Of a DNA stretch of 61,875 bases, positions 191 through 61,875 are shown one piece after another (within the stretch, counting starts at the first letter, position 1; every line of letters starts with the position of its first letter). The stretch is taken from UHGV virus genome UHGV-0856201, one strand, 5' to 3'. The notes under the pieces were generated by a model. The model was not told where the DNA came from. It ran no database searches and saw only the letters and a program-made list of their open reading frames with translations. The position numbers and the translations under genes were made by a program. The stretch comes from a virus.

Positions 191-333
191 CGAAGACGGG
201 ATCACTTCAGTGACTCCAGGCTGAACTTGGGCGGGTGCCGAAGGTGAGTGAAACCACCGAAGTCAAGGGGCAATTCGGGCTAGTTCAGTCTGGCGGAACG
301 GGCAAGAAACTTAATATATATTATTTTACAGAT

Positions 334-618
334 ATGTTCCACAACCCAAACTATGGACACCACCGCCTACAATTGAAAATAACTAACACCTGCATCCAAG
401 TCCACGGATTAACCTGTTCCTGCAACAATCCAGGATTCCACTTACTACAAATTCTAACCACCCAAATAGGAAAAGAACTAAAACCAGAAGAAAAAAATCA
501 AATTAAACAATGCCTTGGAAACCAAGATACTACCGCCGCCGGTGGAGACGACGACCATATTTTTGGAGACCTAGAAGAACTTTTCGAAAAAGATTTTACA
601 GACGCCGATACTGGGTAA
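334..618 (+). CDS. Anellovirus ORF2-like protein
   Basis: ATG at 334 in frame of ORF 235-618; H-x3-C-x-C-x5-H signature (HGLTCSCNNPGFH); overlaps ORF1 start as in anelloviruses. Confidence 0.55.
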   Translation: MFHNPNYGHHRLQLKITNTCIQVHGLTCSCNNPGFHLLQILTTQIGKELKPEEKNQIKQCLGNQDTTAAGGDDDHIFGDLEELFEKDFTDADTG

Positions 619-1619
619 GCAGACGACGCTTTAAAAGAAAATTAAAAAAACTTTTAGTTAAAGAATATCAACCGCATTCTATAAGAAAATGTACTGTTAA
701 AGGACTACTATGTTTATTTCAGACTGATGTACAAAGAATAGGATTTAATTTTGATATGTATGAAGAATCTTTTGTACCAGATAAACTACCAGGTGGAGGA
801 GGCTTTAGCATAAAAAACTTATCATTATACAGTTTATATATAGAACACATAAACGGCCACAACATTTTTACACACTCCAACATCTATTACCCTCTGGTTA
901 GATACTTAGGATGCCAACTAAAATTTTACCAAAGTGCAAATGTAGACTACATAGTAACATACAGCAATACATGGCCATTAGAAAGCAACTTACAAATGTA
1001 CAACACCATGCAACCAGCCATTCACTCACTACAAAAAAACAAAATAATGATACCAGCAAAATCCACACAAAAAAGAAAAAGACCTTATAAAAAAGCATTT
1101 ATACCACCACCAACACAAATGAAATCACAATGGTACTTTGCCGCAGACATAGCAAAAAAACCACTACTAATGCTAAGAACCTCTAGCTGTTCTTTTGATC
1201 ACTGGTACATAGGCACAAGAATGATCAGCACAAACATAACTATATACACATTAAACTCATTAATGATTCAAAACAGACACTGGAATATATCAAACTATCA
1301 ATACTTCTCAAGATACTTAGGAACACAAAAATACTACCTATACAGCACAACACAAACATTTAATGTAATTACAGAACTAGAATTAAAACATGTTATATGT
1401 CTAGGAGACACAAAAAGAAATGTACCAGGAATTTCCTACTGGGACTTATATAAACAAGACCCCACAACAACAGAATTAGAAAAATACAAATCCCAAAAGA
1501 ACTGGGGAAACTGCTTTCATACTAATTATTTACAAGAACATGACCCTGTATTTGCAAGTCAAACAGACTGGGCAACAATAATCACAAAAATAGCAAGCAA
1601 AACCAAAAGACCACAGTAG
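510..1619 (+). CDS. Anellovirus ORF1 (capsid) N-terminal portion, interrupted
   Basis: Arg-rich N-terminus MPWKPRYYRRRWRRRPYFWRPRR; A-rich composition unlike rest of window; stops at 1617-1619, 61 nt before the phage junction. Confidence 0.75.
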   Translation: MPWKPRYYRRRWRRRPYFWRPRRTFRKRFYRRRYWVSRRRFKRKLKKLLVKEYQPHSIRKCTVKGLLCLFQTDVQRIGFNFDMYEESFVPDKLPGGGGFSIKNLSLYSLYIEHINGHNIFTHSNIYYPLVRYLGCQLKFYQSANVDYIVTYSNTWPLESNLQMYNTMQPAIHSLQKNKIMIPAKSTQKRKRPYKKAFIPPPTQMKSQWYFAADIAKKPLLMLRTSSCSFDHWYIGTRMISTNITIYTLNSLMIQNRHWNISNYQYFSRYLGTQKYYLYSTTQTFNVITELELKHVICLGDTKRNVPGISYWDLYKQDPTTTELEKYKSQKNWGNCFHTNYLQEHDPVFASQTDWATIITKIASKTKRPQ

Positions 1620-1684
1620 CAGATTTACCATACACATTTACAGACATACAACTAGTGGAACAAGTAAGATACAACCCATTCCTG

Positions 1685-5952: not shown

Positions 5953-6865
5953 TTATACGTATTAGAGTGGTTATATTTGGATTCCATTTTAACCACTCTG
6001 TACAACCATCGAACCCGGTTAATCCTGCAGATTCAAAATGAGAATGAAAATCTTTTTCAAGTGAACGAATGGTTTTACCATCAGAATTATATATTTCAAT
6101 AACATTGAATTCAAAAGGTGTTCTTTTCTTCAATATTTTTATTCTATTTTCAACATTGTTGCTAATACCTATTTTAACATAACTACCGCATAGAGATCTT
6201 AAAACATATAAGCTAGCTTTGTTTTTGATTTTAAAACCTGTTGCAGCGCAACCTGCACAACGTCTGTCAGTATGTAATAATGTTGTAGGTGTTGTTATAA
6301 ATTCACCATGTTTTTGACATTTAATTTTTATCTTACTGTATTGATTAACATACCCATTGACCCAACCCAAAAATTCATAATTTAATGACAAACATTTTTC
6401 ATTTATCTCTTTTTCTCTTATATGTAATGGTGTCTTTTTATTTTCAAAATAACATTTCTTACAGAAACTTTTATTTATAGTAATGTTGTTACCGGAAGAC
6501 ACCCACTGACCATGTTTAGTACATTCTATTAATGCTTTTGTGCGAACACCATGATAATTTTCAATCCATTTTACAAATTTATAACCTCGCGAGTTACAAA
6601 TATTAGTGATACGTTTTTCATATTCTTTTTGGTCTATACTATTTTTTAGTGCTATGTTCTCATTACTACATTTCTTACAAAAATTTCTACCATTCACTAT
6701 CAAATCAGAGGATGTTTCCCACTCACCATGTTTTTGACAATGCATTATTAGTCTACTTGATGCATTCTTGTAACCATTTAAGAATCTGACAAAATGATAA
6801 ATAGTACCTTTGCAAATTTCTGAAATCTCTGAAAGTCTTTCATGTTCTGTTTTTCGTTTAGTCAA
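5942..6865 (-). CDS. T5orf172-domain protein with Zn-ribbon repeats (homing-endonuclease-like), paralog 1
   Basis: Repeated CxKHGxW...CKKC modules; C-terminal YVLRS...KIGIS...GFDGCTEWL typical of T5orf172 domain. Confidence 0.65.
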   Translation of the reverse strand: MTKRKTEHERLSEISEICKGTIYHFVRFLNGYKNASSRLIMHCQKHGEWETSSDLIVNGRNFCKKCSNENIALKNSIDQKEYEKRITNICNSRGYKFVKWIENYHGVRTKALIECTKHGQWVSSGNNITINKSFCKKCYFENKKTPLHIREKEINEKCLSLNYEFLGWVNGYVNQYSKIKIKCQKHGEFITTPTTLLHTDRRCAGCAATGFKIKNKASLYVLRSLCGSYVKIGISNNVENRIKILKKRTPFEFNVIEIYNSDGKTIRSLEKDFHSHFESAGLTGFDGCTEWLKWNPNITTLIRIITG

Positions 6866-7617: not shown

Positions 7618-8169
7618 TTATAATCCAAGTAAAAGTTTAAGCGCACGTTTACGAACATCATCCTGTTTACGCAAAGCAGTTAATTCTTTTTGCAGATTTT
7701 CTTTCTCTTCCCGTAACTTTTTCATGTCTACCAACAACAAATCATAGGTCTTACGATCGACTTCAATTTCGTTACGTAGTTCGTCATTTTGTTTGTGCAA
7801 TTCTCCGATTTCACACTGTAGTTGCAGTAATGGCTGTGGTTGATGCGTCTGTTGCAACTTCTTTAATTTGGCTAATACAGCTTTGCGAACGGCTTTAGAT
7901 TCACGCATACCCACAAGAAGCATTTGATCCATGTTTAGATCGACCACTTCAAACGGTTTTCTATTACCACCTCTTCCCTGAAGTTTGGGTGTGAAAAGTT
8001 TCGTAACCAAAACTTGACCTTCTAATTCATCCTTAACTCTGGCTAAGAAATCATTATGACGAACCCAGACTTCCTCACCTGCAGCCACACGTGCTGGGTT
8101 GATAAAATTCTTCAAGAAATCCAGACTGGATATTGTGAATTCGTCATCAACATTCATAACTTCAAACAT
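7618..8169 (-). CDS. hypothetical protein with coiled-coil C-terminus
   Basis: Start at MFEVMN (8169), just after leader peptide; heptad-rich C-terminus. Confidence 0.45.
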   Translation of the reverse strand: MFEVMNVDDEFTISSLDFLKNFINPARVAAGEEVWVRHNDFLARVKDELEGQVLVTKLFTPKLQGRGGNRKPFEVVDLNMDQMLLVGMRESKAVRKAVLAKLKKLQQTHQPQPLLQLQCEIGELHKQNDELRNEIEVDRKTYDLLLVDMKKLREEKENLQKELTALRKQDDVRKRALKLLLGL

Positions 8170-8174
8170 AACCG

Positions 8175-8243
8175 TCAACCTCTTACTATTCCTACAATTA
8201 CAGGTACTGCGAAAATCATGAAAGCCAGTATGTAGTAAATCAT
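8175..8243 (-). CDS. small hydrophobic leader peptide (22 aa)
   Basis: MIYYILAFMIFAVPVIVGIVRG; RBS aaggag 8 nt upstream; directly downstream of promoter copy 3. Confidence 0.3.
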   Translation of the reverse strand: MIYYILAFMIFAVPVIVGIVRG

Positions 8244-8264
8244 CGCGTATCTCCTTTTTTCTTC

Positions 8265-8316
8265 CCGTTAACCACAAGATAGTCGTGTCGGTGTAATCCG
8301 TCAAGAATTATTTTAA
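8265..8316 (-). promoter_or_regulatory. conserved phage early promoter (copy 3)
   Basis: ccgtcaagaattattttaaag; -35 TTGACG 8299-8304 (minus), 17-nt spacer, -10 tatctt. Confidence 0.6.
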
Positions 8317-8319
8317 AGA

Positions 8320-8600
8320 TACAGCTAATACAGAACGTGTACTAACTATACATGGTTTTACATAGGTTTCATGATTTTGAGTTACAGCTAATACAGATTC
8401 TGTATTAGTAGATCATAGATTCATAGATTTCGTCATGTTTATTTTTTAACCAACCCCTTTCTATCTTATTCTTTTTATTATCTTTTTATAGATAACATAG
8501 AAAACATAGATAAATAGAAGAGTAGTATAAGTAGTAAAAGTTGCTGCAAGTAGGAGAGGTTTAAAAGGTATAGGGGGTCGCATACTTCCCATGAATCTAT
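8320..8600. other. AT-rich divergent intergenic region with repeats (candidate origin/regulatory hub)
   Basis: Flanked by outward-facing promoters; repeated acagctaataca; ~90-bp block also present at 47697-47785. Confidence 0.4.
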
Positions 8601-8645
8601 ACGTAAAATAATTCTTGACGGATTACACCGACACAACTACCCTGT
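8600..8645 (+). promoter_or_regulatory. conserved phage early promoter (copy 4)
   Basis: aaaataattcttgacggattacaccgac; -35 TTGACG at 8615-8620. Confidence 0.6.
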
Positions 8646-8673
8646 GGTTAAGAAAACAAGAAGGGATGAATGT

Positions 8674-9189
8674 ATGGATCCGAACATCAGAGTTGCTACA
8701 GACGAATTCATTCGTCGCGCCCGTAAAATTCACGGTGATCGTTACGACTACTCATTCAGCATTGTTGAAGATAGTTCCAGCACCGTGGTTATTATTGATC
8801 GTGAAACTAACACAGTGTTCTTTCAGGTCGTCTCTGAACATCTGGACGGTGTTGAACCAGTAACCACTGCTGTTGAACCAGTAACCACTGCTGTTGAACC
8901 AGTAACCACTGCTGTTGAACCAGTAACGACTACTGTTGAACCAGTAACGACTACTGTTGAACCGGTAACGACTGCTGTTGAACCAGTAACCACTGCTGTT
9001 GAACCAGTAACGACTACTGTTGAACCGGTAACGACTGCTGTTGAACCGGTAACGACTGCTGTTGAACCGATCAAGAATCTTTCTGAGATATTCGGTAACG
9101 TTGTAAACAGCGTGTATCACCAGTGCAATTATTCATCTGAAATGTTAGAATTTAGTCATGTTAAAACAATACGAGGACAATCCCCGTGA
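8674..9189 (+). CDS. repeat-containing protein (VEPVTTA x ~10)
   Basis: N-terminal FIRRARKIHGDRYDYS shared with T5orf172 paralogs; central 21-bp in-frame tandem repeats. Confidence 0.5.
   Translation: MDPNIRVATDEFIRRARKIHGDRYDYSFSIVEDSSSTVVIIDRETNTVFFQVVSEHLDGVEPVTTAVEPVTTAVEPVTTAVEPVTTTVEPVTTTVEPVTTAVEPVTTAVEPVTTTVEPVTTAVEPVTTAVEPIKNLSEIFGNVVNSVYHQCNYSSEMLEFSHVKTIRGQSP
8851..9070 (+). repeat. 21-bp tandem repeat (~10 units) inside CDS
   Basis: gttgaaccagtaac(c/g)act(g/a)ct repeated head to tail. Confidence 0.9.
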
Positions 9190-14242: not shown

Positions 14243-15214
14243 CTATAACATCCGTATCAGAGTGGTTATATTTGGATTCCATTTTAACCACTCTGTACAA
14301 CCATCGAACCCTGTTAATCCTGCAGATTCAAAATGAGAATGAAAATCTTTTTCAAGTGAACGAATGGTTGCCCCGTGTCCATTCAATTTTTCTATTACTT
14401 GAAAATCAAATGGTGTTTTTCTACGAAGTGTATTAATTCTTTGCTCTACACAATTACTGATACCTATTTTAACGTAACGACCGCATGTGGACCGCAAGAC
14501 ATAAAGTGTTGCATACTTACCAGCTTTAAACCCTGTTTTACTACAGTTTGGACAACCTTTTTGTTTACTAAGAAAAGAATTAATTGTTGTAACAAAATCA
14601 CCATGCGTTGAACACTTTAATGATATTTTAGATTTCCATGTCGGATGTTCGTCGAATATCTTATTAAAAAACAACCCTGTTTCTTTACATCTATTTGTTA
14701 TTTCAATTTCTCGTTCTTGTTTAGTTTTCTGTCTATTCGTTATACACAATGGACAATCAACAGATGTAAAGATTAGTCTATTGACTGTTGTCTCCCATCC
14801 ACCATGATCAATACAGCTCAGCAAACAAACAGAATTTCCATTTTGAAAATTAGTTTTAAATTTAATAAACTTTGATTTAGAATCTGTTAAACTGTTTTTA
14901 ATCTGTGCAATTCTTAACCCTTTTGTGGTTCGTGTTCCACCACAGATTGGACAACCAGAACCATTCAAAAAATGATAACATTTAGTGTCCCATTCCCCGT
15001 GTGTAACACAAGATAAAATAATTCGTGATTCTTTGTTTTTAAACCCGTCTTTCCATTTTATAAATTTGTAATTTTTTGATTGACAAATATCTTTTATGTT
15101 ATGCTCTAGTTGTTCTTTGGTTAGTCTTTTACCGCCCATTTTTCTACCTTTAGGTTTGTCAATGACTAGCAAAATCAATGATATAAATCGTATTACTGGA
15201 GTGTTTAAAGACAT
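14243..15214 (-). CDS. T5orf172-domain protein with Zn-ribbon repeats, paralog 2
   Basis: C-terminus nearly identical to paralog 1 (GFDGCTEWLKWNPNITTLIR); repeated C..HGxW..C modules. Confidence 0.65.
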   Translation of the reverse strand: MSLNTPVIRFISLILLVIDKPKGRKMGGKRLTKEQLEHNIKDICQSKNYKFIKWKDGFKNKESRIILSCVTHGEWDTKCYHFLNGSGCPICGGTRTTKGLRIAQIKNSLTDSKSKFIKFKTNFQNGNSVCLLSCIDHGGWETTVNRLIFTSVDCPLCITNRQKTKQEREIEITNRCKETGLFFNKIFDEHPTWKSKISLKCSTHGDFVTTINSFLSKQKGCPNCSKTGFKAGKYATLYVLRSTCGRYVKIGISNCVEQRINTLRRKTPFDFQVIEKLNGHGATIRSLEKDFHSHFESAGLTGFDGCTEWLKWNPNITTLIRML

Positions 15215-18278: not shown

Positions 18279-18574
18279 TCGACTTCCTCTTGTGGAACGA
18301 TAAGACAGACGGGGACGACCTGGACTGGGTTACACAAGGGGCGGCTGCACGTGGTATATCTGTTCCGGTTGTTGTACAGAAACGTCCTGAATTGCGACCT
18401 GATGCTATCTTTTACTGGAATGCTTATTTGGATCTGATGGAAGCTGATTGGGTTGCTTGTGAGCGTTATGCACGGGTGTATAACGTTGATGTACAATTCT
18501 TGTGGAAATTATTGGTAGCATTGCGGTCTGCACGTGTTGTCGAGATGAAGAAAAATAAACAAAAGCCCGGTTAG
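17856..18574 (+). CDS. tail assembly chaperone frameshift product (G-T-like fusion via -1 frameshift)
   Basis: Zero-frame gaa aaa aac tga; -1 frame opens at 18275 and runs to 18574 (..LIDFLLWNDKTDGDD..). Confidence 0.5.
18269..18275 (+). other. -1 programmed frameshift slippery heptamer A_AAA_AAC
   Basis: Heptamer in X_XXY_YYZ register just before the G stop codon. Confidence 0.55.
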
Positions 18575-18588
18575 TTCCGGGCGTTTTC
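18564..18588. terminator. putative bidirectional terminator
   Basis: gcccggttagttccgggc then gttttc, between convergent genes. Confidence 0.45.
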
Positions 18589-19485
18589 ATTTATGTAGTC
18601 GAGGATTGCAGGAGAGTATTTAAACCACTCTGTAGCACCGTCAAAGCCTTTGAGACGCGCATTAAGTTCACGGAAGACCTTGTGTACCTCTTGTTCCAGT
18701 TTGTAAGCATCAGCGCCGTGTGGAAACAGGTACGACACGAGTTTAACCACTGGGTGTGTTGTTTCGCGTTGTAGTTGTCGTAGTCGCCGTTTTAAGTCGT
18801 TTGTGATACCGACTTTAAGCAGAGTAGGGCACTTTTTATCGTCAGCTAACACGTAGAGTGTACCGGGTTCTGACGGGTTAAAACCTGTTTGTGAACACTG
18901 AGGACAACCATGTTTTTTATGCAAATGCATGGCTGGACGTTGTTCAAACACTCCATGCTCTGGGCAGATGATTTTTATTCGAGTGAAATTGTTAATATAC
19001 GCCACCAACGAATAGTCGTAACGGTCCCCATGAACTTCGCGAGCACGAGTAATGAAATCTTCGGCGCCTAAGCGTTTTTGTTCAGACGACTGTTTACGAG
19101 CACATTGTGGGCAACCTTTCCCGTGAACATGATTGCCCGGTGTCTGTTCAAACACATCATGTATCGGACAGATAATCTTCACAGGTGTGCACCAATTCAC
19201 ATACTCCACCAGCGAATAGTCATACTTGTCACCATGAACTTCACGAGCACGAGTGATAAACTCTTCTGTGGTTAAACGTTTTTGTTCAACAGTACATTGG
19301 GTACAACCTGCTTTCATTGAAGTGTGATTGTTCGGAGTCTGTTCAAATACCCCGTGTTCGGGGCAGATAATTTTTACTTTGGTGTTAGCACCTTCATACT
19401 CCACTAGCGAGTAATCGTATTTGTGCCCATGAACTTCACGGGCACGCGTGATAAACTCTTCTGTGGTTAAACGTTTCCTACTCAT
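18571..19485 (-). CDS. T5orf172-domain protein with three Zn-ribbon repeats, paralog 3
   Basis: Three repeats of FITRAREVHGxKYDYSLV..KIICPEHGVFEQ; C-terminal GTLYVL..LKVGIT..GFDGATEWF. Confidence 0.65.
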   Translation of the reverse strand: MSRKRLTTEEFITRAREVHGHKYDYSLVEYEGANTKVKIICPEHGVFEQTPNNHTSMKAGCTQCTVEQKRLTTEEFITRAREVHGDKYDYSLVEYVNWCTPVKIICPIHDVFEQTPGNHVHGKGCPQCARKQSSEQKRLGAEDFITRAREVHGDRYDYSLVAYINNFTRIKIICPEHGVFEQRPAMHLHKKHGCPQCSQTGFNPSEPGTLYVLADDKKCPTLLKVGITNDLKRRLRQLQRETTHPVVKLVSYLFPHGADAYKLEQEVHKVFRELNARLKGFDGATEWFKYSPAILDYINENARN

Positions 19486-24065: not shown

Positions 24066-26586
24066 AGTCATCTATCACACTAACCCTGTTGAACACGCTG
24101 ATAACGTTGACTTTGGTGAATGGATGCTGAAACGCTGGCCCGTGGGTACAGTTCGTCCGCGTGGGTTACTGATTTATAAAAACGACGAAAACATTACCCA
24201 AAAGTGGGTTACTGACCCCAGCGTATTGACTGATCCTGACGCTGTTTATCATATTTATGAACTACCAAAAGGAGGAGTGGTTAGTGCAATAACGAAAGTT
24301 ATTAGCACAATTCTAAACCCCATTTTAAAATTGTTTATGCCGAACACCAGTGCGTCGGCTAATCTTAAGAACTCACGTTCAGCGTCGTCTAACAACGCGC
24401 TTCAGGGGCGTACTAATGCTTCACGACCGGGTGAACGTATTTCTGATATCCGTGGTCGTGTACTGGCATATCCTGACCTGTTAATGGACTACCGAATCTT
24501 CATTGACCGAACAGAATACGAAGTTCAGTTTCTGTGTCTGGGTGCTGGTGAATACGAAGTCGAAGACGTTCGTGATGGTATTACACCTGCTGTAAACATC
24601 AGCGGTGAAAAATTAGACTTTTATAAAAAAGGTAATGCACCAGGGTATGGTTCTCCATATATGAATATCGGTGGTGCAATTGATATTAACACTTTTCCGA
24701 TCATGGTTGCTAAGTCATCGAACGAAGCAGACGGATCTGAAGTCAAGCCACCAAACTATGCTGATATCAGCAAAGCGAGTTTTAAAATTTACAGCACAGG
24801 TGAAATTGATACTACGATTTCCAGCGACGATAATACTACAATCGACTGGTCAGAACGTGCACCAATCGGTAGTAAAATTCGTTTATCACAATTTTACAGT
24901 TTTACACCTAATACGTTACCGTTAAACACGTATGTACGCAATGACCTGTCCGGTGAATATGATGTTATTTATGCAGGTGAGAATACGTTAATCATTGATA
25001 CTAATGGTCATGATGGTTGGGATGCTCTATCTGAAAGTGGTCAGGCTGCGTATACACAGGCTTATTTGCGAAACGATGGTTACTGGGAACTTGAAACCAC
25101 TGAAGGAAGTGGAAGTATTTTATACAAGTTTTCACCGTCTCTTGACAGTACCACGCCGTATATTGTCGGGCCTTATCTGATTGATAGTGCGGATAAGTTG
25201 ATGATTAACCTTTATGCACAAAATGGCGTGTATAAAACTGATGGCGACATTTATCCGTTTACCTGTGATTTCCAGGTAATCTTGTCAGACCCGAACGGTG
25301 TAAAAGCGAATGTGACACACTCTATGTCTGTCCGCGGTCGTTATACAGAAGCTGTAGGTAATTCATTAATTGTGGACAACCCTTTTGACGGTCCTGTCAA
25401 CGTGTCTGTAAGACGACTGTCAAATACAGACAAAGACTTCGAAGGGTCTGTTGTTGACAACATCAAGTGGCGCGATTTGTACGCTATCACGAACGTTTCC
25501 CCGCGTTCCTATGGTGATGTGACATTGATCCATACAGTGACGAAAGCAACAAATGCGGCACTGAAACAAAAAGAACGTAAATTAAACATGATTGCAACCC
25601 GTGTGTATAACGGTGTTGCAAGTAGTAATTTTGCAGACGTTGTATTGTCAATGCACACAGATCCTTTATTTGGTCGTCGCACATTAGACACCATTGATCG
25701 TGATGCTTTATATGCTGTTCAGGCACAAATTCTTGAATATTTTGGTGACCAACGAGCAATTGAAGTTGGCTATACATTTGATAACAACAGTACGACGTAC
25801 GAAGAAGGATTGGACACTATCTGTAACACGGTGAACATTAAACCGTATCAGATCGGTAGTGTATTGTATTTCTGGCCTGAATTACCGCAAGACCAGTCCG
25901 CAATGCAGTTTGGTCATGCGTTTAAAATTCCTGACAGTGACAAACGCACACGTTCTTTCGCACCACCTAAAGAATACACTGGTGTTCAGGTTAAATACTT
26001 CGACCACGATGAAAAATCATATTTGTATGTAACCAAAGGTGAAGAAACAAACCTTAATAAGATAGACCTTGTTGCGTGTCAGTCGCGATATCTTGCAAAC
26101 ATTCGCGCTAATCGTGAGATGAATAAGTTACGTTATCAACGTATCACCCATGAATGTACAGCGCTTAGTATCGGGTTACAGGCTACCCCGGGTATGCGCG
26201 TGGACATGATTGATAACACCCGTATGAAACAACACGAAGGTGTCGTAGTTGACGTTGACGGTTTAACGCTTATTCTCAGCGATCCTGTTACGTTCACCAC
26301 GGGTAATACATACAGCATAACGTTAACACACCGACTGGGAACACTTGAAAATATTCCTATAACTGCCGGGGATAATGAATTTTCAGTGGTAATGGCTTAT
26401 CAACCGTCTGAAGAAATTTATACAGGATGGTTGCGTGACCGTACAGCATATGTGATCCGTGCTGATGATGAAAGAAGTAAATTAGCGATGCTTGTTCAGA
26501 GTATGGAACCGTCAGGAAGGAATAATAACTATCAGGTAGGTTTAACGTGCATCAATTACGATGCACGTTATTATCAGGATGATTAA
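24058..26586 (+). CDS. tail tip / central fiber protein (J-like)
   Basis: 842 aa; last large gene of tail operon. Confidence 0.45.
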   Translation: MSKVIYHTNPVEHADNVDFGEWMLKRWPVGTVRPRGLLIYKNDENITQKWVTDPSVLTDPDAVYHIYELPKGGVVSAITKVISTILNPILKLFMPNTSASANLKNSRSASSNNALQGRTNASRPGERISDIRGRVLAYPDLLMDYRIFIDRTEYEVQFLCLGAGEYEVEDVRDGITPAVNISGEKLDFYKKGNAPGYGSPYMNIGGAIDINTFPIMVAKSSNEADGSEVKPPNYADISKASFKIYSTGEIDTTISSDDNTTIDWSERAPIGSKIRLSQFYSFTPNTLPLNTYVRNDLSGEYDVIYAGENTLIIDTNGHDGWDALSESGQAAYTQAYLRNDGYWELETTEGSGSILYKFSPSLDSTTPYIVGPYLIDSADKLMINLYAQNGVYKTDGDIYPFTCDFQVILSDPNGVKANVTHSMSVRGRYTEAVGNSLIVDNPFDGPVNVSVRRLSNTDKDFEGSVVDNIKWRDLYAITNVSPRSYGDVTLIHTVTKATNAALKQKERKLNMIATRVYNGVASSNFADVVLSMHTDPLFGRRTLDTIDRDALYAVQAQILEYFGDQRAIEVGYTFDNNSTTYEEGLDTICNTVNIKPYQIGSVLYFWPELPQDQSAMQFGHAFKIPDSDKRTRSFAPPKEYTGVQVKYFDHDEKSYLYVTKGEETNLNKIDLVACQSRYLANIRANREMNKLRYQRITHECTALSIGLQATPGMRVDMIDNTRMKQHEGVVVDVDGLTLILSDPVTFTTGNTYSITLTHRLGTLENIPITAGDNEFSVVMAYQPSEEIYTGWLRDRTAYVIRADDERSKLAMLVQSMEPSGRNNNYQVGLTCINYDARYYQDD

Positions 26587-26648
26587 CCAACTATCAAGTA
26601 GGGTTAACGTGCATCAATTACGATGCACGTTATTACCAGGATGATTAA
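26527..26648 (+). repeat. tandem ~60-bp duplication at the 3' end of the tail tip gene
   Basis: 26527-26586 and 26589-26648 near-identical, each with palindrome cgtgcatc..gatgcacg. Confidence 0.85.
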
Positions 26649-33969: not shown

Positions 33970-34881
33970 TCAGTAACCGTTACCGTTGAGAAAATTCGGG
34001 GCCGGGGTGGTCATTACCATATAACCGTTAGCGATCAGTTGTTCATCGTTCCAACCTTGCGTAATAAACTGTTCGTAAGTTGCACCACCTGCTTTTTCAG
34101 TCATTACCTTCACAGGTGCTGCCGCTGCTACAGGTGCTGCCGCTGGTGTAGGCGCTGCTACAGGTGCTGCCGCTGGTGTAGGCGCTGCTACAGGTGCTGC
34201 CGCTGGTGTAGGCGCTGCTACAGGTGCTGCCGCTGGTGTAGGCGCTGCTACAGGTGCTGCCGCTGGTGTAGGCGCTGGTGTTACGCCGATCGGACGTGCA
34301 CCTTCAGGCATTGCAGGAGCCGCACCGAACACAGAGGCAGGGGCCGGACCGGAAATGATTTCTTCACCTGCATAAAGCAATTGCGCCATTTCCATGTTGA
34401 TATATACACCAGCCTGATTACCTGTACGACCGTTTGCAACAGATGATCCGCTGATACGGTAGTAATAACCTTTTTTCGCCAGATTTTTATCAATAACTGG
34501 CTGGTACGCTGCGTTATAAACCGGACACGCGTCAATAGCCACGTTGCGTGAGAAACCAATTACCCAGTGACCAGCATAACCAGTTTTACTCGCATGTTTC
34601 GGATCGTCACCGTTAATAATTTTCCATGCGAAAGTAGGTTGTTGTGGTTCGCCGTTCACATAGTGTGAGTTAGCCGCTCGCATGATGGCCTGGAACACCG
34701 CACCAAGTTCACCTTGTTCTTCCCACCAGTTCGCAGCTGTTTTAGGAAATGCCAGACCAACCCACCAGTTATGTTTTTCAGGTGCTAACGGTTTATTTTC
34801 GTGGTCATGAGTGTTGATATCGAAAAAAGAACCGCCAACCAGACGACCAACCGGAGTTACAAAAGATTCTTTCTGTGCCAT
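33970..34881 (-). CDS. putative ssDNA-binding / replication accessory protein with Pro/Ala repeat linker
   Basis: 303 aa; between nuclease and polymerase; AAPVAAPTPA x5; C-terminal YEQFITQGWNDEQLIANGY. Confidence 0.4.
   Translation of the reverse strand: MAQKESFVTPVGRLVGGSFFDINTHDHENKPLAPEKHNWWVGLAFPKTAANWWEEQGELGAVFQAIMRAANSHYVNGEPQQPTFAWKIINGDDPKHASKTGYAGHWVIGFSRNVAIDACPVYNAAYQPVIDKNLAKKGYYYRISGSSVANGRTGNQAGVYINMEMAQLLYAGEEIISGPAPASVFGAAPAMPEGARPIGVTPAPTPAAAPVAAPTPAAAPVAAPTPAAAPVAAPTPAAAPVAAPTPAAAPVAAAAPVKVMTEKAGGATYEQFITQGWNDEQLIANGYMVMTTPAPNFLNGNGY
34115..34280 (-). repeat. 30-bp tandem repeat (5 units) inside CDS
   Basis: ggtgctgccgctggtgtaggcgctgctaca repeated in frame. Confidence 0.9.
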
Positions 34882-44076: not shown

Positions 44077-44844
44077 ATGAGCAACATTAACTCACTTCGC
44101 AAGCTATCTGATACCGATAAAACCAACGTAAAACGTGGTAACGCATATCGCATTGATCCGCGTATTATCAAGATTCGTCCAGGACATAACCCACGCGGTG
44201 TGTTTACCGACAACTACTGGGAAACTGAAGCAGCACTGACACACATTGAAAACTTTCGTCAGGCTTATACTAACGGTGATTTCGTTCCACCGATCGTGGT
44301 ACAGGTTGTTGACGGTGTTCCGTATGTTCAGGATGGTGAACATCGTTTACGTGGTGTATTGGCAGCTATTGAAGCCGGGACGCCGATTCTGACAGTAGAT
44401 GTTGTTGAATCGTCCGGTGACGAACTACAACAGACCCTGACACTGTTAAAAGGTAATGAAGGTAAACCGTGGTCGCCTGTTGAACGTGCTGTTATTTACG
44501 GTCGTTTCCGTTCATATGGGATGAGTGTTGAGCAGATCGCTACACAGGTTGGTAAAACCGTTCAGCATGTTTACGAACAACTGAATATTCTTGATATGCC
44601 GCTGGAACTTAAACGTCGTATTCAGAACGGTGAAATCAGCGCATCAGCAGCCATTCGCCAGTTTAAAGCAGGTGATAAAGAACCAATAATCACACGTCGC
44701 CCGCCTGCTAAACTGGTACGGTCTGCAGTGGAAGCAATCCGCGGTGAATGGTCTGTAACCCGTTCGGAAGGTGGTAAAGTCCTGGTTGAACTCACTGCTG
44801 AACAGTTCGAAGCGTTAAAAGCACTGAAGGATCACCAGTTATGA
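44077..44844 (+). CDS. ParB-like nuclease domain protein
   Basis: ParB N-terminal-like region (VDGVPYVQDGEHRLRGVLAA) plus HTH-like segment. Confidence 0.55.
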   Translation: MSNINSLRKLSDTDKTNVKRGNAYRIDPRIIKIRPGHNPRGVFTDNYWETEAALTHIENFRQAYTNGDFVPPIVVQVVDGVPYVQDGEHRLRGVLAAIEAGTPILTVDVVESSGDELQQTLTLLKGNEGKPWSPVERAVIYGRFRSYGMSVEQIATQVGKTVQHVYEQLNILDMPLELKRRIQNGEISASAAIRQFKAGDKEPIITRRPPAKLVRSAVEAIRGEWSVTRSEGGKVLVELTAEQFEALKALKDHQL

Positions 44845-46296: not shown

Positions 46297-46635
46297 ATGA
46301 GTTTATTTCAATGTGAAAACTGTGGATGTGTTGAAAATACCGCTCTGTCTTCTCAGGGGTTTAACGGTTTCTTTGAAAAATTATACGACTGGTCATATGC
46401 GCCTGAAAGGAAAGGTAAACGATTATGTTCAGCGTGTGGTCCCGTTAAATACAAAAATGGAAAAGATACCGAATACGGTAAATGGCATAACGTTTTTCCA
46501 CGTCAGTATTTACCATTGGGTAAGTTTAAAACGAATCGTCAGGGTAATCTGGAACATGTTGAAACGGGTGAAACAGATTATCAACCTTACATACTTAAAC
46601 AGGATGGTGACTGGAAAAACGAACCCTTCTGTTAA
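46297..46635 (+). CDS. hypothetical Cys-rich protein
   Basis: CENCGC ... CSACG arrangement; 112 aa. Confidence 0.4.
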   Translation: MSLFQCENCGCVENTALSSQGFNGFFEKLYDWSYAPERKGKRLCSACGPVKYKNGKDTEYGKWHNVFPRQYLPLGKFKTNRQGNLEHVETGETDYQPYILKQDGDWKNEPFC

Positions 46636-46640
46636 CAAAA

Positions 46641-46660
46641 AGCGGGGTAATTACCCCGCT
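46641..46660. terminator. putative bidirectional terminator hairpin
   Basis: agcggggtaattaccccgct between convergent genes. Confidence 0.45.
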
Positions 46661-46664
46661 ATCT

Positions 46665-47468
46665 TTATTGACCCATCATATCTTTATACATCATCAAAAC
46701 AACATCATCCGGCATATTATCTACATCGCAATGCGGGTTGTGTGATAACGCATACAACCTGATTTTCTCCTTCAAATCGCTGACATCGACTACAGGTGCT
46801 TCCACTCGTGCTACAGGTGCTTCCACTCGTGCTACAGGTGCTTCCACTCGTGCTACAGGTGCTTCCACTCGTGCTACAGGTGCTTCCACTCGTGCTACAG
46901 GTGCTTCACAAACCATCACGTTAAACGGTGTCCCGGTGTCTTCGTATTTTTCAAGCAAATCGACCATTACATTTACACATTCCGGGATCCATCCCCGGCG
47001 CAAACCATTCTGAATCCAACTGTCAGTAATTGTGTGTTCATTTAAATTCCTGCGTAACACGTATCTTGCACATTCAAAATTACCACACATCGCCTCAAAC
47101 CGTGTCCACACGTCGTGACCGTGAACAGCTTCCAGGATCTGTGAATCAACGTATCTGACACGTTGCCAGTAGTTATTAGCAAAACGCCTGTGTGGTAATT
47201 TCTGACGCAGTTCGGTAACCGGTATTGTGTGTTTAAGAACAATGTTTTCGTCAGAATGTTGTACTGACAAGGGTGACAGTGTGAAGTCAGTAATCTCTTC
47301 AAGAATAATACTGATCGTTTCATATTTAGGATGAAACCTACCGCTTAACCATTGGTTGTAACGACCAACAGTTACCTTAACACCTCGACGATTAAGGTAT
47401 TCAACAGCATTTTGTACCCCGCCTTTTAAATCTATCAATTCGTCTAAAAGGTTCTTTTTCATTATCAC
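46665..47468 (-). CDS. hypothetical protein with EAPVARV x6 repeat
   Basis: 267 aa; HTH-like N-terminus; adjacent to iteron-rich region. Confidence 0.5.
   Translation of the reverse strand: MIMKKNLLDELIDLKGGVQNAVEYLNRRGVKVTVGRYNQWLSGRFHPKYETISIILEEITDFTLSPLSVQHSDENIVLKHTIPVTELRQKLPHRRFANNYWQRVRYVDSQILEAVHGHDVWTRFEAMCGNFECARYVLRRNLNEHTITDSWIQNGLRRGWIPECVNVMVDLLEKYEDTGTPFNVMVCEAPVARVEAPVARVEAPVARVEAPVARVEAPVARVEAPVVDVSDLKEKIRLYALSHNPHCDVDNMPDDVVLMMYKDMMGQ
46788..46915 (-). repeat. 21-bp tandem repeat (6 units) inside CDS
   Basis: tccactcgtgctacaggtgct repeated head to tail. Confidence 0.9.
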
Positions 47469-47479
47469 CCCTCCTTATT

Positions 47480-48050
47480 TAACCACGGGTAAATCATAAC
47501 TCGTGTTAGCAGCTAGTGCAAGATGTGCTTTATATGTTAGTGTATTTACACCTAATGCATGTTGTGCTTTAGCAGCTAGTGCAAGATGCACGTTGTGTAT
47601 TAGCTGTTAGTGCACGTTGTGTATCTATGTTGGTACAGCTAATGCATGTTGTGCTTTATATAGTGCATATTGTGCATTAAAGTTATACTTAACATAGATT
47701 TCGTCATGTTTATTTTTTAACCAACCTCTCTCTATCTTATTCTTTTTATTATCTTTTTATAGATAACATAGAAAACATAGATATAAAGAAGAAGTAGTAT
47801 AGAAAGATAGAGATAGTGCATATAGTGTATTAGCTGTAAATAGAGCTAAAATAAAAGTCTGGGAGATACCTATTGTAATCTATGTTTTTATGCAAGTCTT
47901 TGAAATGATTGTGATTATGGGTTACGTATTTATGTATGTGGTCGAAAATTAGTGCATGTTGTGCACTAACTGTAAACTTAATACTAACATTGTATTAGCT
48001 GTAAAACAGGCCGTGTAGACAACCCGCGGGTATCTGTGGGAAACTAATTT
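47480..48050. other. iteron-rich AT-rich intergenic region (candidate origin / pac / operator array)
   Basis: Multiple agctagtgcaagatg and tgcatgttgtgc copies; second copy of the ~90-bp block at 8421-8510. Confidence 0.45.
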
Positions 48051-48072
48051 AAAATTTATGGGAGACAAATTT

Positions 48073-48708
48073 ATGAAAATTTCAGACCGGGCTAAAAGGG
48101 CTGCTCTGGAGTTAACAACAGATCAACTCCGTTTCGCTAACCTGTGGTTAGATCGTGTCAATAACGGCTTCAGCAACGCTCAGTGCGTCTTACACGCTTA
48201 TCCGGGGCATAAAGACCCTGACGCAGCTAAAGTCACCGCACACCGCCTCCTGTCGAATACAAAGGTGTTGAACTATCTGGACGCGATGGGGAGTCATGCG
48301 CTTGAGTCTGTCGGGGAATCGTTAACGAGTCGTGTCGAGTGGTGGAAACGAGCGGCAAGCACGGCTGAAGAATTACTGGAACCGTATTGTCAGCGCGTTA
48401 TCGTCCCTGGCGAAGACGACACAGAAGCGAAACACCTGTGGGTGAACAGTACCGACGATATCCCCAGCCATCTGCAACAGTACGTAGTTTGCTACAAACG
48501 TTACATGCTGGGCGGATATATTCTGGTGACGCGTGAATTGTTCGATCCGAAAACTCGTGCAAAAGCGTCTGAACAACTGGATAAGATCACCGGGAACAGT
48601 ATCGACCGTGTGGAATTGTCTGGCGTGGTTGGTAACGTGGTTCAGAGTGTTCCTGAAGGTGCAACTATCGACGACATCGCGCAACTGTACCAGAAAGCAC
48701 TTAAATAA
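48073..48708 (+). CDS. terminase small subunit
   Basis: Start MKISDRAK; N-terminal DNA-binding-like region (LTTDQLRFANLW...NAQCVLHAY) resembles Terminase_2 family. Confidence 0.55.
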   Translation: MKISDRAKRAALELTTDQLRFANLWLDRVNNGFSNAQCVLHAYPGHKDPDAAKVTAHRLLSNTKVLNYLDAMGSHALESVGESLTSRVEWWKRAASTAEELLEPYCQRVIVPGEDDTEAKHLWVNSTDDIPSHLQQYVVCYKRYMLGGYILVTRELFDPKTRAKASEQLDKITGNSIDRVELSGVVGNVVQSVPEGATIDDIAQLYQKALK

Positions 48709-48800
48709 CGCCGGAAACCGTTTGCGTTTTCGATAAACAGGGTTGAGTGGCACAAGTGTACTGGTGAGAGTATTAAATTCGTCAGAGAGCGTTTTAGAAA

Positions 48801-60060: not shown

Positions 60061-60187
60061 TCCTGTCAGTTAACATACTTCGCGATCAGTTTATCACAGT
60101 CCTCGCGACAGGTAGCATACTTAAACAGGTCACTTGCTGCTTCTGCCCGGTAGTCAGTATCAATAGTGTAATGTTCATTGACATAGT
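60061..60187. repeat. 127-bp exact repeat of phage start (1681-1807); circular-contig overlap
   Basis: 60061-60187 identical to 1681-1807; length 127 equals a common assembler k-mer size. Confidence 0.9.
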
Positions 60188-60287
60188 NNNNNNNNNNNNN
60201 NNNNNNNNNNNNNNNNNNNNNNNNNNNNNNNNNNNNNNNNNNNNNNNNNNNNNNNNNNNNNNNNNNNNNNNNNNNNNNNNNNNNNNN
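60188..60287. other. 100-N scaffold gap
   Basis: Run of exactly 100 N. Confidence 1.
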
Positions 60288-60414
60288 CGTGAATTGTTCG
60301 ATCCGAAAACTCGTGCAAAAGCGTCTGAACAACTGGATAAGATCACCGGGAACAGTATCGACCGTGTGGAATTGTCTGGCGTGGTTGGTAACGTGGTTCA
60401 GAGTGTTCCTGAAG
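60288..60414. repeat. 127-bp exact repeat of phage 48532-48658 (inside terS)
   Basis: Identical to terS internal segment; diverges into anellovirus sequence at 60415. Confidence 0.9.
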
Positions 60415-61454
60415 ACAAACAACAACTAGAGCAACACGCAGGAAACCCTTTTACATCAGAATATTTAACTAATCCAGAAGGACTATTCACAAGCACAAAA
60501 GACCCTACAAACTTTTTTCTACAATTTACAGAAAAAACACAAGCACTTGAAACACATAAAACAACATTAAACTACAATCACCTACAACACCCATTAATAT
60601 TAGAAACAAGATACAATCCAAATAAAGACCAAGGCCTACATAACAAAGCATATGTACTACCAGTAAACAAACCAGGAGTTAACTGGACACCACCAAATGA
60701 TGAAGACTTAATATTAGAAGGATTTCCAATATGGTTACTAATATTTGGATTTATAGACTACATTAAAAAAACTCAAAAGCTAATTAATGTAGACGAAAAA
60801 CATGTACTATGCATACAAACATCTAACACAAACCCAAAATGGGACCAACCTATTATACCACTCTCATATACATTTGAAGAAGGACACAGCCCTTACAGCA
60901 AACAATTAAACCCATATGACACAGACAAATGGTATCCACAAATACAATACCAAGAAGAAGCCATAAATGATATTATAAAATGTGGACCAGGAACAGCTAA
61001 AATAGGAGACAGACTTAGTGAAGAGATTAAATGTGAATATGAATTTTATTGGAAATGGGGAGGACATCCACCTAAAATGCTAACTATAGACAATCCTGCA
61101 CAACAGGGAACATATCCCATACCCCGTAACAGCATCACATCAAATTCGTTACAGAATCCAGCAACACCACCAGAGTACTTCTTATACAGCTTCGACGAAA
61201 GACAGGGACTGCTTACAAAAACAGCTGCAAAAAGAATTAGAAAAGACTGGGAATCTAAAGACTATGTATCTGACTTTACAGAATCAACAAAAGAAGTCCC
61301 AATGCAAACACTCCAAACATCATCCGACGAAACATCGGACTCGGAAAAAGAAGAGGAGACACTACTCCAGCAGCTCCACCGACAGCAACAGCACCAGAAG
61401 CAGCTCAAGCGCCGAATTCTCAGATTAATGCAGAAAAATCCAAATTTAGAATAA
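60415..61454 (+). CDS. Anellovirus ORF1 C-terminal portion (partial)
   Basis: A-rich, Thr/Asn/Lys-rich ORF ending in Ser/Glu-rich and basic tail; composition matches 510-1619. Confidence 0.65.
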
Positions 61455-61658
61455 TACAATGTACTCAATATGTTAAACTGTTTGATGATAAAACTGTAAA
61501 AAATAGACGCATGAATAAGTATGAAATGGAACATGAAAAAGATGTAGCTAAAGCCTTTTGTAGACCACCAAAAAAATTCTTACTTGATGTACCATACTAC
61601 CCATGGGTAGACATCCCAGAACCACTTGTAAACTTTCACCTGAGATATAACTTTGATG

Positions 61659-61664
61659 AATAAA
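61659..61664 (+). promoter_or_regulatory. polyadenylation signal (AATAAA)
   Basis: aataaa ~200 nt downstream of ORF1 stop, as in anelloviruses. Confidence 0.5.
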
Positions 61665-61749
61665 CAAGGCCAACAATATTCACTTAGTGGTGTCAGTTTA
61701 TATAAGTTAAAACCTAAATAAACATCCGTTACCAATTGAAATTTGTTGG

Positions 61750-61840
61750 CGCCAAAAGGGGGCTCCGCCCCCTTTAACCCCCAAGGGGGCTCCGCCCCCT
61801 TAAACCCCCAAAGGGGGCTCCGCCCCCTTAAACCCCCGGA
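61750..61840. repeat. Anellovirus GC-rich region with three ~27-bp repeats
   Basis: gggggctccgccccc at 61758, 61785 and 61813, each followed by ttaaaccccc. Confidence 0.8.
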
Positions 61841-61875
61841 AACCACAAAATTTGCATTGCCGACCACAAACGAAC

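What the first reader, a model, noticed from the sequence alone, without database searches (positions are those of the whole stretch)
47480..48050. Iteron-rich intergenic region next to an HTH-like repeat protein and upstream of terS
There are at least six copies of 12-20-nt motifs (agctagtgcaagatg, tgcatgttgtgc, gtattagctgt) plus the AT-rich 90-bp block. The flanking minus-strand gene 46665-47468 has an HTH-like N-terminus. Candidates are a replication origin with initiator, an operator array, or a pac site (terS starts at 48073).
Basis: partly seen in the sequence, partly recalled or inferred. Interest (0 to 1): 0.55.

Follow-up and report, generated by a model that had tools for sequence, protein, structure and literature searches.

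The report
Phage iteron origin-like region with reader
The non-coding stretch upstream of the small terminase gene of this 9NA/Sasha-like lytic phage is a real array of about nine 19-bp binding sites around the least stable DNA in the genome, and it is most likely a replication origin read by the orphan helix-turn-helix protein next door.

Summary
About nine copies lie between 47514 and 47997: six left and three right of a 100-bp block that is 77% AT.

A smaller second copy sits at 8305-8643, with two sites and a 96%-identical AT block between outward-facing promoters. These two AT blocks are the two least stable duplex segments in the window.

Relatives keep the layout but carry other site sequences, and these track the N-terminal Cro/Xre-type HTH domain of the adjacent orphan protein. 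One metagenomic relative is 97% identical to it in the core domain but only 43% in the HTH domain, and has variant sites. TerS stays 78-93% identical across site classes, so the sites are not TerS/pac recognition elements.

Best reading (about 0.5): a lambda-O-like iteron origin with its initiator, which also represses its own promoter, plus a minimal second origin. Main rival (about 0.3): a purely regulatory operator array.

No origin activity or DNA binding was measured. The 2019 paper that mapped 9NA packaging could not be read. This is a new member of a known kind, of moderate interest.

The parts
46641..46660 (.). Bidirectional intrinsic terminator shared by the rightward early genes and the leftward HTH-protein gene
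   Evidence: 8-pair stem with 6 G-C pairs and T runs on both strands.
46665..47462 (-). Gene for the 265-aa orphan protein (Sasha gp81 / 9NA gp84 homologue). It has an N-terminal Cro/Xre-type HTH (aa 1-60), a conserved helical core (aa ~76-185), a repeat linker and a C-terminal helical pair.
46790..46907 (-). 21-bp in-frame tandem repeat (5.6 copies, PVARVEA units) forming a low-confidence linker. Copy number differs among relatives and the repeat is absent from 9NA-type proteins.
   Evidence: pLDDT below 50 for residues 188-223.
47493..47521 (-). Putative sigma-70 promoter of the HTH-protein gene: TTGCAC, 17-nt spacer, TATGAT. The -35 hexamer lies inside iteron 1.
   Evidence: Read from the sequence, coordinates. 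The simple scan did not list it. Inferred, not tested.
47514..47679 (+). Left iteron array: 19-bp sites at 47514, 47553, 47577 (overlapping 47584), 47608, 47640 and 47661. All read in the same orientation.
47693..47792 (.). Conserved AT-rich core: 77% AT, pyrimidine-rich left half and purine-rich right half on the + strand, with (C)ATAGA(T/A)A words. It is 96% identical to 8422-8521. Candidate DNA-unwinding element.
   Evidence: (D10). In one search this block and its copy are the two least stable segments of the window at 60, 100 and 150 bp. The core is conserved across relatives.
47814..47997 (+). Right iteron group: sites at 47814, 47950 (perfect 8-bp arms, TTAGTGCA-N5-TGCACTAA) and 47979 (degenerate, TAATACT-N5-TGTATTA).
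48016..48045 (+). Putative terS promoter: TAGACA, 18-nt spacer, TGG then GAAACT (extended -10). The element is conserved in all relatives whatever their iteron class.
   Evidence: Alignment, coordinates. Inferred, not tested.
48073..48708 (+). Small terminase gene
   Evidence: phrog_51 at E 7.5e-12 and a weak Terminase_2 match. Annotated as terminase small subunit in Bas82 and VLCpiS10a.
8268..8651 (.). Second, minimal copy of the system. It comprises a leftward consensus promoter (8268-8315), two iterons (8326-8344 and 8389-8407, TAATACA-N5-TGTA(C/T)TA), the AT core (8422-8521) and a rightward consensus promoter (8604-8651).
   Evidence: (D10, D14, I1). Present in six E. coli relatives and in 9NA, absent from Sasha, Sergei and Solent. 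In 9NA the two sites are of the 9NA class.

Best explanation
The 590-bp intergenic region is most likely the main replication origin of this virulent 9NA/Sasha-like siphophage, and the divergently transcribed 265-aa protein is its origin-binding initiator.

Proposed mechanism:
- Dimers of the protein bind the 19-bp imperfect-dyad iterons through the variable N-terminal Cro/Xre-type HTH domain. Six sites lie left and three lie right of the core.
- The resulting nucleoprotein complex sits against a conserved 100-bp AT-rich, strand-asymmetric core. This core is the easiest DNA in the genome to melt.
- The core also lies between divergent putative promoters, whose transcription would add negative supercoiling.
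- The conserved central and C-terminal parts of the protein would then recruit the phage's own primase/helicase, SSB and DNA polymerase.
- Because iteron 1 covers the -35 of the protein's own promoter, the protein would also repress its own gene.

A second locus at 8305-8643 has two iterons plus the same core between outward promoters. It would be a minimal, dispensable second origin.

Shown here: the repeats, their clustering, the second locus, the duplex instability, the HTH fold, and the co-variation of site class with the HTH domain. Inferred: DNA binding, unwinding, recruitment of the replisome, the promoters, and origin activity itself.
For: 1. Site anatomy. There are about nine 19-bp imperfect inverted repeats in one 480-bp stretch and almost nowhere else in the window.

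2. Duplex stability. The sites flank an AT core that, with its copy at 8.4 kb, is the least stable duplex in the whole window at three window sizes.

3. Conserved layout, changing sites. 9NA, VLCpiS10a and six metagenomic relatives keep the order gene, iterons, AT core, iterons, promoter, terS. The site sequence falls into about six classes.

4. Site class tracks the HTH domain.
- L006: core domain 97% identical to the window protein, HTH domain 43%. Its sites have shifted from TAGTGCA-type to TAATACTATCATAGTATTA-type, while the AT core is kept.
- 9NA, L007, L008 and L021: HTH domains 82-93% identical among the first three, and one shared site class.
- VLCpiS10a and L013: HTH domains 66% identical, with a shared ACATCTGGTA core.

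5. The second locus co-varies too. Its two sites are window-type in this phage and in Bas82, and 9NA-type in 9NA.

6. TerS does not co-vary. Overall identity is 78-93%, and residues 1-70 are 90-94% identical between this phage and 9NA or VLCpiS10a.

7. No other initiator was recognised. The PHROGs scan of the replication module found PolA, a gp2.5-like SSB, exonucleases, an SNF2-type helicase and a 784-aa primase/helicase, but no known initiator.

8. It fits the lambda paradigm. Lambda's iteron is a 19-bp imperfect inverted repeat, its iterons adjoin an AT-rich tract, and two iterons plus that tract suffice for unwinding (PMC7466680). The second locus has exactly that make-up.
Against: - No replication, binding or unwinding data exist for any 9NA-like phage in the papers I could read.
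- The protein has no detectable sequence or fold relationship to any known initiator. Only its HTH domain matches known structures, and those are mostly transcription regulators.
- No consistent DnaA or IHF sites are present.
- Iteron spacing is irregular (39, 24, 31, 32, 21 bp), not the regular roughly 22-bp phasing of plasmid iterons.
- The cumulative GC-skew extremes coincide with the two loci (minimum 8482, maximum 48834). They also coincide with switches in gene orientation, so this is not independent evidence.
- In 9NA-type phages the outermost sites overlap the 5' leaders of both flanking genes, which is what a pure repressor would do.
- The recognition helices of the window and L006 proteins differ only modestly, so the domain-swap evidence rests on related half-sites (TAGTGC versus TAATAC), not unrelated ones.
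Confidence: 0.5

Rival explanations
1. The region is a purely regulatory operator array. The HTH protein would be a Cro/CI-like regulator. It would bind the dyad sites cooperatively, perhaps looping the left and right groups across the bendable AT core. It would control its own promoter and the terS promoter, and at the second locus the divergent early promoters. It would have no role in replication.
For: - The only recognisable domain is a Cro/Xre-type HTH whose structural neighbours are mostly repressors, Aca proteins and antitoxins.
- Iteron 1 overlaps the -35 of the putative promoter of its own gene.
- Sites centred about 62 and 93 bp upstream of the inferred terS start (47979 and 47950) sit at spacings I recall as typical of upstream activators.
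- In 9NA-type phages the outermost sites overlap the ribosome-binding regions of both flanking genes.
- At the second locus the first site abuts the UP element of the leftward promoter in both this phage and 9NA.
- A remote 86-aa homologue of the HTH domain sits in the korA position of a ParA/KorB-like operon.
Against: - Sites occur at only two loci, although the genome has at least 14 consensus promoters.
- Most sites lie more than 60 bp from either putative promoter and bracket the AT core instead.
- This model does not explain a 100-bp non-coding core that is conserved across phages with different site classes and is the least stable DNA in the genome.
- Positions of the sites relative to the terS promoter are not conserved between site classes.
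- A virulent phage has no immunity function that would obviously drive diversification of operator specificity.
Confidence: 0.3
2. The region is a pac site. The repeats, or another element here, would be where the terminase small subunit assembles to start headful packaging.
For: - 9NA packages by a pac-directed headful mechanism (PMC4153490; PMC8954984 citing Zeng et al. 2019).
- The region abuts terS, and from memory pac lies at or just upstream of the terS 5' end in SPP1-type phages.
- Several GenBank records of relatives are opened inside the AT core, at window position about 47797.
- The segment between the AT core and terS carries elements conserved regardless of iteron class. Examples are ATCTATGAT, a TTTCAATAACTTAAAG repeat in 9NA-type phages, and the CCGTG..TATCTGTG.GAAACTA box. 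A conserved TerS could read these.
Against: - TerS is 78-93% identical overall. Its first 70 residues are 90-94% identical between this phage and 9NA or VLCpiS10a, whose repeats are unrelated. The repeats therefore cannot be its specificity determinants.
- The repeats co-vary with the other neighbour instead.
- A second copy of the repeats and core 19 kb away does not fit the single pac fragment reported for 9NA.
- Record start points may simply follow the 9NA convention.
Confidence: 0.08
3. The region is a centromere-like or genome-organising site. The arrays would be bound by the HTH protein to position or pair phage genomes, as ParR does at parC or KorA/KorB do at their sites.
For: - Multiple repeats flank a promoter region, which from memory resembles parC of plasmid R1.
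- A ParB-like gene lies 3 kb upstream at 44077-44844.
- A remote homologue of the HTH domain sits next to ParA/KorB-like genes.
Against: - No partition NTPase gene neighbours the locus.
- The phage is virulent, and no lysogeny or plasmid-maintenance genes were reported for 9NA.
- The conserved, unstable AT core has no role in this model.
Confidence: 0.04

Closest known systems
Phage lambda / lambdoid oriλ with O protein
   Same: Both have 19-bp imperfect inverted-repeat iterons next to an AT-rich tract. Two iterons plus the tract make a minimal unwinding unit in lambda (PMC7466680), which matches the second locus here. From memory, lambdoid O proteins also have a variable N-terminal iteron-reading part and a conserved C-terminal part. 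The domain swap seen here (43% versus 97% identity) mirrors that.
   Different: The origin here lies beside the gene, not inside it. Sites flank the AT tract on both sides. A second locus exists. The protein shows no sequence match to any Pfam family, O protein included, and carries a Cro/Xre-type HTH. The host phage is virulent and has its own replisome.
Bacillus phage SPP1 G38P with oriL and oriR (from memory, not checked here)
   Same: A lytic siphophage that uses pac headful packaging, in which one origin-binding protein recognises the same boxes plus an AT-rich tract at two distant places in the genome.
   Different: No homology was tested. In SPP1, oriL lies inside the initiator gene.
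Satellite phage P4 alpha protein with ori and crr (from memory, not checked here)
   Same: Two separate clusters of the same repeat are used for replication by a phage-encoded primase/helicase.
   Different: In P4 the repeat-binding domain is part of the primase/helicase itself. Here a separate small HTH protein would do the reading.
Iteron plasmids (Rep proteins of pSC101, F, R6K, P1, RK2)
   Same: Iterons sit next to an AT-rich unwinding element, and the initiator represses its own gene through sites overlapping its promoter (review PMC4980987, listed; the details are from memory).
   Different: Plasmid Rep proteins are winged-helix proteins binding regularly phased 17-22-bp direct repeats as monomers. 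Here the sites are dyads, irregularly spaced, and read by an Xre-type HTH.
Cro/CI-type phage repressors, Aca proteins and Xre-family antitoxins with their operators

Membership tests
Lambda-type iteron origin with O-like initiator | Several ~19-bp imperfect inverted-repeat iterons clustered in one place | tested here: met
   About nine sites at 47514-47997 and two at 8326 and 8389.
Lambda-type iteron origin with O-like initiator | AT-rich, easily melted tract directly beside the iterons | tested here: met
   The two cores are the two least stable segments of the window and are 77% AT.
Lambda-type iteron origin with O-like initiator | Initiator reads the iterons through a variable N-terminal domain, with a conserved remainder | tested here: inconclusive
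   Co-variation of HTH domain and site class across about six classes and at both loci supports recognition. No binding was measured.
Lambda-type iteron origin with O-like initiator | Protein homologous to replication protein O | tested here: not met
   No Pfam, NCBIfam or PDB sequence match. Fold matches are limited to the HTH domain.
Lambda-type iteron origin with O-like initiator | Origin located inside the initiator gene | tested here: not met
   Sites lie in the intergenic DNA upstream of the gene.
Lambda-type iteron origin with O-like initiator | Replication starts here | not testable with these tools
   Needs marker-frequency, 2D-gel or mini-replicon data.
pac site of a headful-packaging phage | Recognised by the small terminase, so sites and TerS specificity should change together | tested here: not met
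   TerS residues 1-70 are 90-94% identical between this phage and 9NA or VLCpiS10a, whose repeats are unrelated.
pac site of a headful-packaging phage | Located in or next to terS | tested here: met
   The region ends 15 bp before the terS start codon.
pac site of a headful-packaging phage | Packaging-series ends map here | not testable with these tools
   No virion read data. Zeng et al. 2019, which mapped the 9NA pac region, is not in the library.
Cro/CI (Xre)-type regulator with operators | Xre-type helix-turn-helix DNA-binding domain | tested here: met
Cro/CI (Xre)-type regulator with operators | Dyad operators overlapping the regulated promoters | tested here: inconclusive
   One of about nine sites covers the -35 of the putative promoter of its own gene. 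The others lie away from the putative promoters. The promoters themselves are predictions.
ParR/parC- or ParB/parS-type centromere | Adjacent partition NTPase gene | tested here: not met
   Neighbours are terS and small early genes. The ParB-like gene at 44077-44844 has no ATPase partner in the ORF list or in the annotations of relatives.

The most novel reading that the evidence does not exclude
The system may be a swappable replicon-specificity cassette in a virulent phage lineage. The cassette would be the HTH domain, its promoter and the iterons, about 430 bp in all. It would be paired with an invariant unwinding and loading core present at two places in the genome.

Because the outermost sites cover the leaders of the protein's own gene and, in 9NA-type phages, of terS, titration of the protein by newly replicated iterons could act as a copy-number timer. 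Packaging would then switch on only after replication has amplified the genome.
Probability: 0.15. Interest if true: 0.7.

Novelty: new member of a known kind. Interest (0 to 1): 0.5.

Why it matters
Nothing I could read says how 9NA-like phages (Nonanavirus/Sashavirus) start DNA replication. This group includes BASEL collection, biocontrol and plasmid-dependent isolates.

If the reading is right, it gives this group a testable origin, a candidate initiator from a protein family with no annotation, and a minimal two-site origin at the second locus. It also offers natural domain-swap variants that predict which residues read which bases.

It would also be another case of origin specificity diversifying by cassette exchange, as in lambdoid phages, this time in strictly lytic phages. 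That bears on competition between co-infecting relatives.

For annotation, the gene and both loci could be labelled in the 9NA-like genomes compared here.

Tried and rejected
- Plasmid relatives: megablast of 46600-48800 against the plasmid collection found nothing.
- RNA genes: Rfam on 47400-48120 gave only a chance mir-15 match at E 0.8. No tRNAs were found in the window.
- Cruciform in the AT core: the single-strand DNA fold scored z -1.55, and 19 of 200 shuffles folded as well. Not significant.
- Host-factor sites: no consistent DnaA boxes or IHF consensus across relatives.
- Protein family searches: Pfam, NCBIfam and PADLOC found nothing. PHROGs gave only an unknown-function family.
- PDB sequence search: only chance hits with E of 0.1 or more.
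- First AlphaFold model (8 sequences): poor, mean pLDDT 59, and Foldseek against PDB was not significant.
- Paralogue of the HTH domain in the window: none found.
- IMG/VR scan: added only window-type and 9NA-type loci.
- GC skew: the extremes fall at the two loci, but I rejected this as evidence because gene orientation switches there too.
- Constant GAAACTA tail on the iterons, read by the conserved domain: this holds for the 9NA, VLCpiS10a, L012 and L013 classes but not for the window or L006 classes, so I dropped it.
- CCGTGG(T/G)(T/A)AA box as a late promoter: the pattern is too degenerate to judge.
- Zeng et al. 2019 (J Virol 93:e00848-19), the one paper likely to discuss this region and the 9NA pac location, could not be retrieved.

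Full report
**What the window is.** The window matches virulent 9NA/Sasha-like siphophages. The segment 46600-48800 is 93-97% identical to Escherichia phage KarinMuster_Bas82, Salmonella phages Sasha, Sergei and Solent, and Escherichia phages PDP46, AVIO78A and PJ16. Its terS part is 81% identical to 9NA and to Klebsiella phage VLCpiS10a. No plasmid in the collection matches.

The finding lies between a leftward gene at 46665-47462 and terS at 48073-48708. The leftward gene is the homologue of Sasha gp81 and 9NA gp84.

The window itself is a chimeric scaffold. The phage circle runs from 1680 to 60060, and anellovirus fragments sit at both ends. This does not affect the finding.

**Checking the observation.** All three quoted motifs are present in the stated numbers. 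They are parts of one site, a 19-bp imperfect dyad: TA(G/A)T(G/A)CA-N5-TG(C/T)A(C/T)TA. The best example is TTAGTGCA-TGTTG-TGCACTAA at 47949-47969.

The 15-mer core with up to three mismatches occurs 13 times in the window, seven of them within 47514-47964 on the + strand. Shuffles gave 2.24 on average, and none of 100 reached 13. A matrix scan places sites at 47514, 47553, 47577/47584, 47608, 47640 and 47661 to the left of the AT block. To its right, sites lie at 47814, 47950 and, from the consensus search, 47979.

The AT block at 47693-47792 is 77% AT. On the + strand its left half is 77% pyrimidine and its right half 76% purine.

**A second locus.** The same 100-bp block recurs at 8422-8521 with 96% identity. 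To its left are two further 19-bp dyads, TAATACA-GAACG-TGTACTA at 8326 and TAATACA-GATTC-TGTATTA at 8389. These are among the best matrix hits outside the first locus.

This second unit sits between two outward-facing copies of the phage's consensus promoter, TAAAATAATTCTTGACGGATTACA. That promoter occurs at least 14 times in the genome, but not inside the first locus.

In a nearest-neighbour stability scan, the two AT blocks are the two least stable stretches of the whole window at 60, 100 and 150 bp. They lie about four standard deviations from the mean.

The second locus is present in six E. coli relatives and in 9NA. It is absent from Sasha, Sergei and Solent, so it is dispensable.

**The neighbouring protein.** It has no hit in Pfam, NCBIfam, PADLOC or PDB sequences. 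PHROGs places it in phrog_25538, function unknown. An exhaustive HMMER scan of 1.84 billion cluster representatives found only 12 proteins at E up to 0.001.

An AlphaFold2 model built from 14 sequences reaches a mean pLDDT of 79. It shows four parts:
- a four-helix N-terminal domain (residues 1-60);
- a disordered link;
- a confident helical core (residues ~76-185);
- the PVARVEA repeat linker (low confidence), followed by two C-terminal helices.

**Comparative evidence, the key result.** I compared 9NA, VLCpiS10a, Bas82 and the metagenomic contigs L006, L007, L008, L012, L013 and L021. All keep the order: gene, repeats, AT core with (T)ATAGATA(G)T words, repeats, conserved promoter-like box, terS. 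L006 is a short contig that ends inside the AT core, so for it only the left part can be seen. The repeat sequence changes between them:

| Phages or contigs | Repeat class |
|---|---|
| Window, Bas82 | TAGTGCA-N5-TGCACTA |
| L006 | TAATACTATCATAGTATTA |
| 9NA, L007, L008, L021 | TAACAC-N4-GTGTTA-NAC-GAAACTA |
| VLCpiS10a | ACATCTGGTAAGCTGAAAC |
| L013 | CACATCTGGTA |
| L012 | AACCAAAA-NN-GTTATATGAAA |

The repeat class follows the N-terminal domain of the neighbouring protein:
- Within the 9NA class, the HTH domains are 82-93% identical.
- VLCpiS10a and L013 share the ACATCTGGTA core, and their HTH domains are 66% identical.
- L006 is a natural swap. Its core domain is 97% identical to the window protein but its HTH domain only 43%. 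Its sites have changed while the AT core next to them is almost unchanged.

The two classes in that swap are related rather than unrelated. Their half-sites are TAGTGC and TAATAC. This fits the modest differences in the putative recognition helix (GRYNQWLSG versus GRYNEWMAG).

The second locus co-varies as well. 9NA carries two 9NA-type sites at the same positions.

TerS behaves differently. It is 78-93% identical throughout, and its first 70 residues are 90-94% identical between this phage and 9NA or VLCpiS10a. The repeats are therefore read by the HTH protein, not by TerS.

**Likely mechanism.** The anatomy is that of an iteron origin.
- Dyad iterons of lambda's length sit next to an unwinding tract.
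- The reader protein has a variable DNA-binding domain and a conserved remainder.
- A minimal unit of two iterons plus the AT tract exists. In lambda that combination is sufficient for unwinding (PMC7466680).
- The replication module encodes PolA, a gp2.5-like SSB, exonucleases, an SNF2-type helicase and a 784-aa primase/helicase, but no recognised initiator.

Both AT cores lie between divergent promoters. At the second locus these are consensus promoters. At the first they are inferred: TTGCAC-17-TATGAT for the HTH-protein gene, with its -35 inside iteron 1, and TAGACA-18-TGG-GAAACT for terS. Divergent transcription would favour melting. The overlap with iteron 1 predicts that the protein represses its own gene.

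I put this explanation at about 0.5.

**Rivals.**
- A purely regulatory operator array, about 0.3. In favour: the structural neighbours of the HTH domain are mostly regulators, and in 9NA-type phages the outermost sites cover the leaders of both flanking genes. Against: it does not explain the conserved, maximally unstable core, the restriction to two loci, or the many promoter-distal sites.
- A pac site, about 0.08 for the repeats. The TerS comparison and the second locus argue against it. Conserved elements between the AT core and terS could still include pac. 9NA is known to be a pac-type headful packager, but the mapping paper was not available.
- A centromere-like role, about 0.04. It lacks an NTPase partner gene.

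**Limits.**
- All functional steps are inferred.
- The promoters are read from sequence only.
- The fold matches are modest, as expected for a 55-residue domain.
- The GC-skew coincidence (minimum at 8482, maximum at 48834) is confounded by gene orientation.
- No DnaA or IHF sites are conserved across relatives.

**Verdict.** The feature is real and specific. It is a protein-DNA recognition system, most likely an origin with its initiator plus a second mini-origin. It is a new member of a known kind, and of moderate interest.

Noticed in passing
window 1-1679, 60188-60287, 60288-61875: The window is a chimeric scaffold. There are 100 Ns at 60188-60287. Both ends carry anellovirus sequence: TT_ORF1 matches (E 4.8e-79 and 1.9e-39) and GC-rich CCGCCCCC repeats at 61752-61837. 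The contig after the gap begins with 127 nt identical to terS 48532-48658, and 1680-1806 equals 60061-60187. These exact 127-nt overlaps look like k=127 assembly-graph junctions. The phage circle is 1680-60060 (58,381 bp).
   Followed up: partly
window, at least 14 sites, e.g. 2084(-), 3587(-), 8300(-), 8605(+), 17774(-), 19721(-), 36860(-), 42219(+), 43768(+), 49093(-), 51050(-), 52673(-), 58242(-): A highly conserved promoter family: TAAAATAATTCTTGAC(G/A)GATTACA, then a TAnnnT -10 after a 17-nt spacer. Most copies drive the leftward clusters of small genes. None lies inside the 47469-48057 region.
   Followed up: partly
window 46790-46907, 8808-9122, 34085-34307: In-frame short tandem repeats occur in three genes. 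The two genes that neighbour the two iteron loci carry 21-bp units (PVARVEA x5.6 and VEPVTTA x about 11). The gp2.5-like SSB gene carries 9-, 12- and 18-nt units. Copy numbers differ among relatives.
   Followed up: partly
window 8414-8510, 47622-47884: The words CATAGAT and AACATAGA occur almost only inside the two AT cores and as inverted copies flanking them (47623 and 47878 on the minus strand). The relatives have (TAGATAGTA)x3 at the same place. This may be the site of a conserved factor or of the protein's conserved core domain. Unexplained.
   Followed up: partly
9NA-type, VLCpiS10a, L012 and L013 intergenic regions; window 48040-48046: GAAACTA is strongly enriched as the tail of the iterons in four of the six classes (shuffle P at or below 0.008). 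It is not enriched in the window or L006 classes. The window's single copy is the -10-like box upstream of terS, which is conserved in all relatives.
   Followed up: partly
window 8275(-), 8644(+), 47486(-), 48036(+), 52713(+): A CC(C/T)GTGG(T/G)(T/A)AA box lies 25-35 nt upstream of the start codons of five genes that border intergenic regions, including terS, TerL and the HTH-protein gene. The pattern is too degenerate to assess.
   Followed up: partly
window 5955-6208 / 14250-14503; 18996-19476; 26512-26635: Other repeats in the window: a 254-nt, 81%-identical pair in two leftward genes; three repeats spaced about 200 nt apart inside the 304-aa gene 18571-19485; and a 62-nt tandem duplication carrying AACGTGCATC..GATGCACGTT hairpins after the 842-aa gene.
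   Followed up: no
L014 709-3339: A remote 86-aa homologue of the HTH domain (E 1.6e-4) sits in the korA position upstream of ParA-like and KorB/ParB-like genes on a 4-kb metagenomic contig.
   Followed up: no
window 8644-9189 and 7618-8304: The genes flanking the second locus differ from 9NA. One is a DUF723-like protein (annotated so in PDP46) with the VEPVTTA repeat; the other is an anti-repressor-like protein. Both ORFs begin with the same MTDYTDTT peptide because the 48-bp inverted promoter repeat extends into them. The true starts are probably further downstream.
   Followed up: no
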